A stretch of 64,000 nt of DNA from Escherichia coli (lineage in GTDB: Bacteria > Pseudomonadota > Gammaproteobacteria > Enterobacterales > Enterobacteriaceae): the NCBI RefSeq assembly GCF_003334815.1, contig NZ_QOWO01000022.1; one strand, 5' to 3'. Below, piece after piece: positions 9,804 through 10,257 of this stretch (positions are counted from its first letter, which is position 1; every line of letters begins with the position of its first letter). Under the pieces are notes generated by a model, which worked only from the letters and a program-made list of their open reading frames with translations, ran no database searches and was not told where the DNA came from. A program made the translations under genes and the position numbers.

Positions 9804-9945
9804 TAATCCCGGAAACGTACTTAAGGGCAGAGGGGCACCGCCTTCTGCCCTTTAATAAACAGGATATTATTACCCCCACAGGACTGCCAGTATCAAAAAT
9901 GCACCTGCAGTAAGCATGGCAAGTTTTTCCCATATCATGGGATTG

Positions 9946-10257
9946 TCATCCCTCTTTTGTTTTCTTTTTCTCATATAAATGATGGTGTTTACTCAGACGG
10001 AAGAGTCTTTCGTCTGTGTCTGTATGTCTGATTATTTTGCTCATTTGATTACGCATCAGAATGCGCTTAGCACAGAAGTTGATTTTAGCGGTTGCCAGGT
10101 TTTTATTAATAGTCAGCGTGGCGGCATGATATGCATGCCGCCACAATATTAACGCCCGGGCATAATCATGATGTACTGTCGACTCTTCCGCGGCTTTTGC
10201 CAGCTGAGACCAGGACATTCGGTGCAGATCAGCTTGTATAAGGTCCGGGGATGTCAT
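9946..10257 (-). CDS. Hypothetical small protein, possibly a PerC/ANR-like regulator
   Basis: 103 aa with GGAG RBS. Segment SWSQLAKAAEESTVHHDYARALILWRHAYHAA resembles the W...A...W pattern of PerC/ANR-type small regulators. Weak, pattern-only. Confidence 0.35.
   Translation of the reverse strand: MTSPDLIQADLHRMSWSQLAKAAEESTVHHDYARALILWRHAYHAATLTINKNLATAKINFCAKRILMRNQMSKIIRHTDTDERLFRLSKHHHLYEKKKTKEG

What the first reader, a model, noticed from the sequence alone, without database searches (positions are those of the whole stretch)
9870..10257. PerC/ANR-like small regulator followed by a 22-codon hydrophobic mini-ORF
The 103-aa protein has the tryptophan/alanine-spaced helix pattern of PerC/ANR-type regulators. 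Eight nt after its stop, a 22-codon ORF (9938-9870, MIWEKLAMLTAGAFLILAVLWG) could encode a membrane peptide. Both are speculative.
Basis: inference. Interest (0 to 1): 0.25.

Follow-up and report, generated by a model that had tools for sequence, protein, structure and literature searches.

The report
Plasmid ANR-like regulator plus small membrane-protein gene
On an E. coli IncI-type conjugative plasmid, the 103-residue gene is a divergent member of the ANR family of small anti-activator proteins. The "mini-ORF" after it is the tail of a conserved, mostly unannotated 34-codon gene for a tiny membrane protein found on about 1,500 related plasmids.

Summary
Both ORFs are in the sequence as described, and both appear to be real genes, but the details change.

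**103-aa protein (10257-9946, minus strand).** It scores just below NCBI's cut-off for the ANR family: 28.3 bits against 32, E=1e-6. It is 53% identical over 59 residues to a 77-aa relative that passes the cut-off. Its AlphaFold model retrieves almost only ANR-labelled structures. No match to PerC or FlgM was found.

**22-codon ORF.** It is the C-terminal two-thirds of a 34-codon ORF (9974-9870) that overlaps the last 29 nt of the 103-aa gene.
- Five divergent classes of this small ORF occur on about 1,500 I-complex plasmids.
- The stop position is conserved and differences fall mainly at third codon positions (pN/pS 0.16-0.71).
- All classes share the motif W-E-K/R...T-A-x-x-F...A-V-x-W, forming one predicted transmembrane helix.

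RefSeq does not annotate the small ORF, and its function is unknown. It always lies within about 0.5 kb of the dqlB/agrB type I toxin-antitoxin module, but AgrB shows no complementarity to it.

Verdict: a new member of a known regulator family plus an undescribed small membrane-protein family. Interest is modest.

The parts
9946..10257 (-). Gene for a 103-aa (12.1 kDa, pI 9.9) divergent ANR-family protein. The ANR core is about residues 16-66, followed by a long, basic C-terminal helix.
   Evidence: ORF and GGAG Shine-Dalgarno. RefSeq annotates it as WP_000203479.1 'hypothetical protein'. NCBIfam ANR_neg_reg scores 28.3 bits, E 1.1e-6. BLASTP to the ANR-passing relative P0054 gives 2e-21. AF2 pLDDT is 85.4 with helices 16-28, 32-45 and 49-102. 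Foldseek neighbours are ANR-labelled.
9870..9974 (-). A 34-codon small ORF (MRKRKQKRDDNPMIWEKLAMLTAGAFLILAVLWG). It has a basic N-terminus followed by one predicted transmembrane helix, and it overlaps the 103-aa gene by 29 nt.
   Evidence: tblastn finds it in 1,524 plasmid records, 1,496 of them covering at least 80% of the peptide. Divergent classes were read. pN/pS is 0.16-0.71 with third-position bias. AF2 predicts a helix at residues 12-33. The N-terminal part carries a net charge of +4 and the C-terminal 17 aa have a mean Kyte-Doolittle score of 2.2.
9870..9938 (-). It is an internal, non-conserved ATG within the 34-codon ORF and may give a minor alternative start in this plasmid.
   Evidence: The ATG is replaced by ATT or CTT in L003 and L005, and by I, V, T or A codons in the other classes. 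The GAGGG upstream of it lies 11-12 nt away.
9823..9852 (.). G+C-rich hairpin shared by the minus-strand operon and the convergent dqlB gene. It is likely a bidirectional terminator, although it has a weak U-run.
   Evidence: Folds at -24.2 kcal/mol (z -2.9) on the minus strand and -25.3 kcal/mol (z -3.9) on the plus strand. It is nearly invariant across plasmids. The simple terminator scan did not call it.
9708..9803 (+). [quoted passage not shown] Listed as context.
   Evidence: RefSeq annotation WP_000609151.1. DqlB/agrB was validated on pOXA-48 (PMC12365149).
9352..9441 (-). agrB antitoxin sRNA of the dqlB module. Listed as context.
   Evidence: Rfam RF02891 scores 49.3 bits against a gathering score of 40. 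Its duplex with the dqlB 5' UTR is -72.8 kcal/mol, z -5.3, matched by 0 of 300 shuffles.
10285..10476 (-). 63-aa gene immediately upstream in the same operon-like run (phrog_3766, function unknown).
   Evidence: A homologous 71-aa gene precedes the 83-aa ANR-like ORF in L006.
10489..10851 (-). 120-aa gene, the first gene of the conserved 120/63/ANR-like cassette.
   Evidence: L006 has a 128-aa homologue in the same order.

Best explanation
The interval holds the last two genes of a minus-strand operon-like run (120 aa, 63 aa, 103 aa, 34 aa) on an IncB/O/K/Z-type I-complex conjugative plasmid. The run ends at a hairpin shared with the convergent dqlB toxin gene.

Gene 1 (10257-9946) encodes a divergent ANR-family protein: a three-helix ANR core plus a long basic C-terminal helix. 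By analogy with Aar and Rnr, it most likely acts through protein-protein contact rather than by binding DNA. Its likely targets are host AraC/XylS-type activators and/or H-NS-family silencers, which would re-tune host or plasmid transcription. This mechanism is inferred, not shown.

Gene 2 (9974-9870) encodes a 34-residue protein with a basic, disordered N-terminus on the cytoplasmic side and a single transmembrane helix that ends at the C-terminus. It is probably translated from the upstream ATG on the same mRNA as gene 1. The start region is A-rich, lacks a Shine-Dalgarno sequence and lies inside the end of gene 1. It most likely works as a small inner-membrane accessory or modulator protein of I-complex plasmids rather than as a self-standing toxin.

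That both are genuine genes is shown by comparative evidence. Their activities are inferred.
For: **ANR-like gene**
- The only NCBIfam hit is ANR_neg_reg, E 1.1e-6. All close relatives score 20-29 bits on the same model.
- Relatives found by a profile search of 1.84 billion representatives include P0054 (41.1 bits) and P0061 (34.9 bits), both above the 32-bit cut-off.
- P0054 is 53% identical over 59 residues, BLASTP 2e-21.
- The AF2 model has pLDDT 85 with the expected helices.
- Foldseek ranks 11-50 are almost all 'ANR family transcriptional regulator', with rmsd 0.5-2 A in about half of them.
- Signature residues from PMC4983702 map as follows (my own manual mapping): W16, A23, A35, W39, A42, K58, F61-C62.

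**Small ORF**
- tblastn hits cover residues 1-33 at about 46-49% identity in roughly 1,400 plasmids, on top of the near-identical ones.
- Five classes keep an ATG, a 12-17-residue N-terminal part, the core W-E-K/R-x-A-x-x-T-A-x-x-F-x-x-x-A-V-x-W, and a stop 1-2 codons later.
- Window versus IncI-gamma: pS 0.94-0.95, pN 0.15-0.20. Differences by codon position are 5/0/15 (chi-square p 1.6e-4).
- All 10 class pairs give pN/pS below 1.
- Indels in the family are in frame: +6 nt in L005 and +3 nt in P0011. P0018 has two compensating frameshifts that restore the transmembrane frame.
- Several gene callers have independently predicted 34-45-aa proteins here.
- AF2 predicts a helix at residues 12-33, and the hydrophobicity and charge fit a membrane helix.
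Against: **ANR-like gene**
- It scores below the curated cut-off.
- At 12 kDa it is larger than the published limit of under 10 kDa.
- The signature W43, which is essential in Aar, is Leu here, and E14 is Thr in this allele.
- No AraC/XylS regulator is annotated in the 88 kb examined of a closely related plasmid.

**Small ORF**
- There is no direct evidence of translation.
- No class has a Shine-Dalgarno sequence at the conserved ATG.
- The antisense frame that shares its third codon positions also shows low pN/pS. It is lower than the sense frame in 2 of 10 pairs.
- Some plasmids carry frameshifted copies (P0019, 29 contigs), so the gene is dispensable.
- One class (L022) lacks the basic N-terminus.
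- No family, structure or literature match gives a function.
Confidence: 0.7

Rival explanations
1. The mini-ORF is not translated. It is a chance ORF in the 3' UTR of the 103-aa gene, and its conservation reflects recent recombination or an RNA-level element such as terminator context.
For: Short ORFs are very common here. Within the window's own plasmid class the 3' part of the region is nearly identical across plasmids, which looks like mosaic recombination and says little about selection. There is no Shine-Dalgarno sequence at 9974. RefSeq does not annotate it.
Against: Across classes the DNA is only 60-72% identical while the peptide core, the stop position and the start are kept. Differences are mainly at third positions, and pS is close to saturation while pN is about 0.2. 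Indels are in frame. The ORF is also kept where it lies far from the terminator, either upstream of a 58-aa gene or downstream of agrB.
Confidence: 0.12
2. The small protein belongs functionally to the neighbouring dqlB/agrB addiction module. It would be either a second membrane toxin or a membrane-level modulator or immunity factor for DqlB.
For: In all five contexts read, the small ORF lies within about 0.5 kb of dqlB/agrB. It is either convergent with dqlB across the shared hairpin (window, IncK, IncI-gamma) or 36 nt downstream of agrB on the same strand (L024). Its size and hydrophobicity resemble those of type I toxins.
Against: AgrB has no complementarity to its mRNA: -31.0 kcal/mol, z +0.6, against -72.8 kcal/mol, z -5.3 for the dqlB 5' UTR. 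No other sRNA family or plus-strand promoter-like site was found beside it. It sits tightly inside same-strand gene runs rather than as its own unit with a long 5' UTR. It also occurs without an adjacent dqlB (L007, L017, L018). dqlB is common on IncL/M, X and N plasmids (PMC12365149), and no hits outside MPF_I plasmids turned up. Frameshifted copies are tolerated.
Confidence: 0.12
3. The conserved coding signal belongs to a plus-strand (antisense) ORF, for example 9916-9978 MASFSHIMGLSSLFCFLFLI.
For: The antisense frame that shares third codon positions stays open across the region and has low pN/pS of 0.19-0.72.
Against: Its start is absent in the IncI-gamma class. Its length is inconsistent at 20, 54 and 125 aa. 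The sense frame has the lower pN/pS in 7 of 10 pairs, with one tie, and has a conserved start and stop. A low ratio in the co-phase antisense frame is expected as a by-product of selection on the sense frame.
Confidence: 0.04
4. The 103-aa protein is a FlgM anti-sigma factor, as many GenBank and UniProt records call it, or a PerC-type activator.
For: Database names such as 'flagellar biosynthesis protein FlgM'. PerC-like and ANR proteins have been confused in annotation before (PMC11773190).
Against: Pfam gives no FlgM or PerC hit, even at E up to 10. NCBIfam gives only ANR. The structural neighbours are ANR proteins.
Confidence: 0.02

Closest known systems
ANR (AraC Negative Regulator) family: Aar of EAEC 042, Rnr/Cnr; NCBIfam NF033650
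   Same: It has a three-helix core and matches the A-x3-W-x2-A and F/Y-C parts of the published signature. E-values against the family HMM are around 1e-6, with relatives that pass the cut-off. The predicted fold matches ANR models. The gene is carried on horizontally acquired DNA.
   Different: It scores below the curated cut-off. It is 103 aa, with an extra C-terminal helical, basic extension of about 35 residues. The signature W43 is Leu and R47 is Lys. It carries a subfamily-specific N-K-N-L-A motif. No AraC/XylS partner gene is evident on the plasmid. It forms a conserved cassette with 120-aa and 63-aa genes of unknown function.
Small single-pass inner-membrane proteins of enterobacteria that modulate larger membrane proteins (e.g. 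MgtR, MgtS, AcrZ, PmrR). This comparison rests on my own knowledge and was not tested.
   Same: It is 30-50 aa with one transmembrane helix and a short charged cytoplasmic segment. It is encoded at the end of an operon or overlaps a neighbouring gene, and it is often missed by annotation.
   Different: There is no sequence similarity to any of these proteins. It is plasmid-borne and restricted to MPF_I (I-complex) plasmids. Its partner is unknown.
Type I toxins (DinQ/DqlB, Hok/PndA, TisB, Ibs, Ldr)
   Same: It is a very small hydrophobic helical peptide located next to dqlB/agrB and hok/pnd modules on the same plasmids.
   Different: No cognate antisense or trans sRNA was found, and there is no AgrB complementarity. 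It is not an independent transcription unit here. The charged segment is N-terminal and the helix runs to the C-terminus. There is no NCBIfam hit to any toxin family.

Membership tests
ANR family (NF033650; Santiago et al. 2014/2016) | Score at or above the curated cut-off (32 bits) on the NCBIfam ANR_neg_reg HMM | tested here: not met
   The score is 28.3 bits, E 1.1e-6, covering residues 18-66 against model positions 4-52 of 54. Close relatives score 20.6-29.1 bits. More distant relatives P0054 (41.1 bits) and P0061 (34.9 bits) pass, and P0054 matches the window protein at BLASTP 2e-21.
ANR family (NF033650; Santiago et al. 2014/2016) | Three conserved alpha-helices spanning the protein | tested here: met
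   The AF2 model has pLDDT 85.4 with helices 16-28, 32-45 and 49 onwards. Foldseek neighbours at ranks 11-50 are almost all annotated as ANR.
ANR family (NF033650; Santiago et al. 2014/2016) | Seven signature residues A10, E14, A22, W26, A29, W43, R47 (PMC4983702) | tested here: inconclusive
   My manual mapping onto alignment A4: A23, A35, W39 and A42 are identical. E14 is T27 here, but Glu in most relatives. R47 is K58. W43 is L54. The aromatic-Cys pair (positions 50-51) is F61-C62.
ANR family (NF033650; Santiago et al. 2014/2016) | Low molecular mass (under 10 kDa) | tested here: not met
   The protein is 103 aa and 12.1 kDa. However, AFDB entries labelled ANR range up to 96-125 aa.
ANR family (NF033650; Santiago et al. 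2014/2016) | Accompanies a virulence-type AraC/XylS activator in the same genome or element | tested here: not met
   No AraC/XylS-family product is among the annotated features at positions 20,000-108,275 of the closely related plasmid NZ_CP080057.1. The host chromosome is unknown, so a chromosomal partner cannot be excluded.
ANR family (NF033650; Santiago et al. 2014/2016) | Direct binding to AraC-family regulators and/or H-NS, with anti-activation | not testable with these tools
   This needs two-hybrid, pull-down or EMSA experiments, as in PMC4983702 and PMC5570504.
PerC family (Pfam PF06069) | Significant match to the PerC profile | tested here: not met
   The Pfam-A scan found no PerC hit at independent E up to 10. 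The only weak hit was ARM_KDM8_N at E 0.07.
FlgM anti-sigma-28 (the name carried by many database entries) | Significant match to a FlgM profile | tested here: not met
   There is no FlgM hit in Pfam or NCBIfam. The name appears only as a source label.
Type I toxin-antitoxin toxin (considered for the small ORF) | Small hydrophobic membrane-helix peptide | tested here: met
   The protein is 34 aa. AF2 predicts a helix at residues 12-33. The C-terminal 17 residues have a mean Kyte-Doolittle score of 2.0-2.5.
Type I toxin-antitoxin toxin (considered for the small ORF) | Cognate antisense or trans-acting sRNA antitoxin with complementarity to the toxin mRNA | tested here: not met
   The Rfam scan finds only AgrB, which belongs to dqlB. 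The AgrB duplex with the small-ORF mRNA is no better than shuffled sequences, z +0.6. No plus-strand promoter-like site overlaps the ORF. An undescribed sRNA cannot be excluded.
Type I toxin-antitoxin toxin (considered for the small ORF) | Membership of a described toxin family (DinQ/DqlB, Hok, Ldr, Ibs, TisB and others) | tested here: not met
   There are no NCBIfam, PHROG or PADLOC hits at E up to 1 for three class representatives.
Type I toxin-antitoxin toxin (considered for the small ORF) | Toxicity on overexpression | not testable with these tools
   This requires an induction experiment.

The most novel reading that the evidence does not exclude
The 34-36-residue membrane protein is a previously unrecognised backbone factor of I-complex plasmids that works together with the adjacent DqlB/AgrB addiction module. 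It might act as a membrane-level modulator or immunity partner of the DqlB pore-forming peptide, or as a second addiction toxin. That would add a protein layer to what is thought to be a purely RNA-controlled type I system.
Probability: 0.1. Interest if true: 0.6.

Novelty: new member of a known kind. Interest (0 to 1): 0.3.

Why it matters
I-complex plasmids (IncI1, I-gamma, B/O, K, Z) are major carriers of ESBL and other resistance genes, and of virulence genes in STEC and EPEC.

- A conserved gene that RefSeq does not annotate on about 1,500 sequenced plasmids is a gap in their parts list. Transposon screens that score only annotated CDSs, such as PMC10286972, may have missed it.
- An ANR-type protein carried inside conjugative elements, here and in the unrelated element carrying P0054, with no AraC partner on the element, suggests a hypothesis. 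Mobile elements may use ANR proteins to tune host H-NS or AraC-type regulation. This question was raised but left open in PMC11773190.
- The widespread 'FlgM' and 'Neurotensin receptor R8' labels for this family are not supported by profile or fold searches and should be corrected.

Tried and rejected
- **PerC and FlgM identities:** no profile support.
- **Solved structures:** nothing for either protein.
not conserved.
- **A plus-strand terminator-like hairpin at 9939-9952:** only -5.8 kcal/mol, z -1.0. Its T-run is simply the complement of the Lys/Arg codons, and it is absent in other classes.
- **A promoter-like site at 10109-10082:** the number of such sites is no more than in shuffled sequence.
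- **AgrB targeting of the small ORF:** rejected.
- **An antisense ORF as the selected frame:** rejected because its boundaries are inconsistent.
- **Distant relatives of the small ORF:**
  - two profile searches of 5.8 billion proteins found only I-complex plasmid variants;
  - the phage collection gave nothing;
  - a second tblastn with the most divergent class found the same set of plasmids.
- **Literature searches:** a string search for the peptide cores found no paper. Searches on IncI1 and I-complex genetics found nothing on this ORF.
- **R64 (AP005147):** not in the plasmid collection.
- **Not run:** the expensive metagenome and genome-contig scans, because every search so far stayed within I-complex plasmids.

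Full report
**Where the finding sits.** The 1-kb region around the finding is 100% identical to several E. coli plasmids and matches 862 of 5,426 complete E. coli genomes. Of the matching places, 1,046 are on plasmids and 100 on chromosomes. RefSeq annotation of one identical plasmid and of a closely related IncB/O/K/Z plasmid gives the context. Reading along the minus strand, the order is:
- a serine-protease-type autotransporter (window 15520-11357);
- three small genes of 120, 63 and 103 aa;
- trbA, a dsbC-like gene and trbC of the IncI-type (type IVB) transfer system.

Rfam places the AgrB antitoxin sRNA at 9441-9352 on the minus strand, at 49.3 bits against a gathering score of 40. Its 5' end pairs with the dqlB 5' UTR at -72.8 kcal/mol, z -5.3. 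The neighbouring DqlB/AgrB module therefore looks complete and matches the system validated on pOXA-48 (PMC12365149).

**Checking the observation.** Both ORFs are present exactly as quoted. The 103-codon ORF has a good GGAG ribosome-binding site. Its TGA stop is followed by 7 nt and then the ATG of the 22-codon ORF. A 22-codon ORF alone means little, because 96 ORFs of at least 20 aa overlap the surrounding 6.5 kb.

**The 103-aa protein.**
- Pfam gives nothing, so there is no PerC and no FlgM hit.
- NCBIfam gives one hit, ANR_neg_reg (NF033650). It scores 28.3 bits, E 1.1e-6, over residues 18-66, just under the curated 32-bit cut-off.
- Every close relative behaves the same way. These include the 107-aa form at 72% identity and an unannotated 83-aa form present on several hundred IncI1/B/O plasmids. 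They score 20.6-29.1 bits.
- A profile of the family searched against 1.84 billion representative proteins found only 24 relatives. Two of them pass the ANR cut-off: P0054 (77 aa, 41.1 bits) and P0061 (34.9 bits).
- P0054 aligns with the window protein at 53% identity over 59 residues without gaps, BLASTP 2e-21.
- The AlphaFold model has mean pLDDT 85.4 and helices at 4-13, 16-28, 32-45 and 49-102.
- In Foldseek against AFDB50, the first ten hits are the family's own members, which carry the labels 'FlgM' or 'Neurotensin receptor R8'. Nearly every hit from rank 11 to 50 is annotated 'ANR family transcriptional regulator'. About half of these have rmsd 0.5-2 A, and some are 96-125 aa long.

The published ANR signature (PMC4983702) can be laid over the family alignment. 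This is my own manual mapping.
- The aromatic position 3 is W16.
- A10 is A23, A22 is A35, W26 is W39 and A29 is A42.
- E14 is T27 in this allele, but Glu in most relatives.
- After a loop two residues shorter than in the signature, W43 is L54, R47 is K58, and the aromatic-Cys pair is F61-C62.

I conclude that this is a divergent ANR-family protein with a C-terminal extension. It is not a textbook member: it is sub-threshold, weighs 12.1 kDa, lacks the W43 that is essential in Aar, and has no AraC/XylS gene annotated on the related plasmid. P0054 itself sits inside the transfer region of a different conjugative element, among TraG_N, TraU and TraC_F_IV genes. ANR-type genes embedded in conjugative elements may therefore be a recurring theme. 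By analogy with Aar, which binds AggR and H-NS (PMC4983702, PMC5570504), the likely mechanism is protein-protein interference with host AraC-type activators or H-NS-family silencers. This is inference.

**The mini-ORF.** Ordinary IncI1 plasmids share DNA-level homology with the window only from about 9862 downwards, which covers the hairpin and dqlB. DNA comparison therefore offered few informative relatives. Those few were decisive about the start. An in-frame ATG 36 nt upstream (window 9974), the reading frame and the stop are all kept. L005 also has an in-frame 6-nt duplication. The unit is therefore a 34-codon ORF, MRKRKQKRDDNPMIWEKLAMLTAGAFLILAVLWG, which overlaps the last 29 nt of the 103-aa gene in a different frame.

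tblastn with this peptide hit 1,524 plasmid records, and 1,496 of them covered at least 80% of the peptide. About 1,400 matched at only 46-49% identity over residues 1-33. Nearly all are conjugative MPF_I plasmids of Escherichia, Salmonella, Shigella and Klebsiella. Reading those loci gave further classes:

| Class | Peptide |
|---|---|
| IncI-gamma | MRRNNLRRNPHEKNIIWEKIAIITASAFIIFAVLWH |
| IncK/B/O | MKKKTISKKINGKNTVWEKIAIFTAALFLIFAVCWS |
| Variant linked to the ANR-like gene in other contexts | MRKRKQKRGEKHIVWGKLAMLTAGAFFVLAVLAG |
| Rare IncK2/Z class | MMNNLKFHAETPENNSFWERVAIVTAAAFILFAVFWRA |

All classes keep a start codon, a 12-17-residue N-terminal segment (basic in four of the five classes) and the core W-E-K/R-x-A-x-x-T-A-x-x-F-x-x-x-A-V-x-W. 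All stop one or two codons after that core.

The core DNA is only 60-72% identical between classes, and the differences sit mostly at third codon positions.
- Window versus IncI-gamma: differences by codon position are 5/0/15, chi-square p 1.6e-4, with pS 0.95 and pN 0.15.
- All ten class pairs give pN/pS of 0.16-0.71.

The one antisense frame that shares third positions also looks constrained, as expected, and scores lower than the sense frame in two pairs. However, it has no conserved start, and its length varies between 20, 54 and 125 aa.

Protein databases hold 34-45-aa 'hypothetical proteins' of this family from several gene callers. Among them are:
- an in-frame one-codon insertion (P0011);
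- a double frameshift that restores the helix frame (P0018);
- a frameshift-truncated form at an A-run seen on 29 contigs (P0019);
- a fusion to the ANR-like C-terminus (P0012).

AlphaFold predicts a disordered N-terminus and one helix at residues 12-33. The last 17 residues have a mean hydropathy of 2.0-2.5, and the N-terminal part has a net charge of +4 to +7. I take this as good, though indirect, evidence for a translated single-pass membrane protein with its N-terminus inside the cell.

**What the small protein does.** This is unknown. It has no match in NCBIfam, PHROGs, PADLOC, the PDB or the searchable literature. Two further profile searches and a second tblastn never left the I-complex plasmids.

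Its position is striking. In every context read it lies within about 0.5 kb of dqlB/agrB. It is either convergent with dqlB across the shared hairpin (with or without an intervening 58-aa gene, phrog_8110) or, in one class, 36 nt downstream of agrB.

Several observations argue against a toxin or TA role:
- AgrB has no complementarity to its mRNA.
- No other sRNA or antisense promoter-like site was found.
- It is packed into same-strand gene runs rather than standing alone.
- It occurs without an adjacent dqlB in some loci.
- Frameshifted copies are tolerated.

I therefore favour a benign accessory membrane protein, translated from the same mRNA as the upstream gene. I keep a link to the addiction module as the more novel minority reading.

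**Verdict.** The 103-aa gene is a new, divergent member of a known family. The small ORF is an undescribed and largely unannotated small-protein family of a familiar general kind. Interest is modest at 0.3.

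Noticed in passing
window 9352-9441 (-) and 9708-9803 (+): A complete DqlB/AgrB type I toxin-antitoxin module. 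The AgrB sRNA scores 49.3 bits in Rfam, and its 5' end is strongly complementary to the dqlB 5' UTR (-72.8 kcal/mol, z -5.3). RefSeq annotates dqlB here but not agrB.
   Followed up: partly
L007 2532-2816, L008 2514-2798 (IncI-gamma plasmids): PGAP calls a 94-aa 'hypothetical protein' (WP_014640317.1) here. It seems to be a 5'-extended mis-start of the conserved 58-aa gene (MNLVDAFV..., phrog_8110). The extension runs over the small ORF in another frame and so hides it. In other plasmids the 58-aa gene is called correctly (L009 2639-2815).
   Followed up: partly
window 10285-10851 (-); L006 1888-2725: The ANR-like gene is the third gene of a conserved cassette: 120/128 aa, then 63/71 aa, then the ANR-like gene. 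The 63-aa product matches phrog_3766 (function unknown) and has a hydrophobic N-terminus. The cassette's function is unknown.
   Followed up: no
window 7953-7995: A 9-nt tandem repeat (GGTTTCAGT, 4.8 copies) encodes a (TET)n run near the C-terminus of TrbA. TrbA lengths differ between plasmids (429, 441, 420 and 426 aa in the loci seen), so this may be a length-variable tract.
   Followed up: no
window 11357-15520 (-): A full-length 1,387-aa autotransporter with a serine-protease-type passenger; the beta-barrel domain scores 251 bits on TIGR01414. In the otherwise identical plasmid NZ_CP103572.1 the same gene is annotated as a truncated pseudogene.
   Followed up: no
L013 4001-4234 (GCA_910594925.1 contig): P0054, a 77-aa protein that passes the ANR cut-off, is encoded inside the transfer region of an unrelated conjugative element, between TraU/DUF1525 and TraC_F_IV genes. 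This suggests ANR genes recur in conjugative elements.
   Followed up: no
L016 1-3288; L018/L019 2-1766: ANR-like or small-ORF units sit next to lipid A modification genes. In L016, a sulfatase-family (phosphoethanolamine-transferase-like) gene and a lipid A acyltransferase gene precede the ANR-like P0051. In L018, the small ORF is followed by a 499-aa sulfatase-family gene. IS66 elements are nearby.
   Followed up: no
L024 3692-3937 (-) (NZ_CP055049.1): An unannotated 81-aa ORF with a signal-peptide-like N-terminus and a proline- and lysine-rich body lies directly downstream of the class-4 small ORF, between agrB and a hok-family gene.
   Followed up: no
protein ids P0019, P0012, P0018: Natural variants of the small ORF. 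P0019 is a frameshift truncation at an A-run, seen on 29 contigs. P0012 is a frameshift fusion of the ANR-like C-terminus to the small protein. P0018 has a double frameshift that restores the helix frame. The A-run could act as a slippage site.
   Followed up: no
database labels for the 103-aa family: Many GenBank and UniProt entries name this family 'flagellar biosynthesis protein FlgM', and name the 83-90-aa form 'Neurotensin receptor R8'. Neither name has any profile or fold support.
   Followed up: yes
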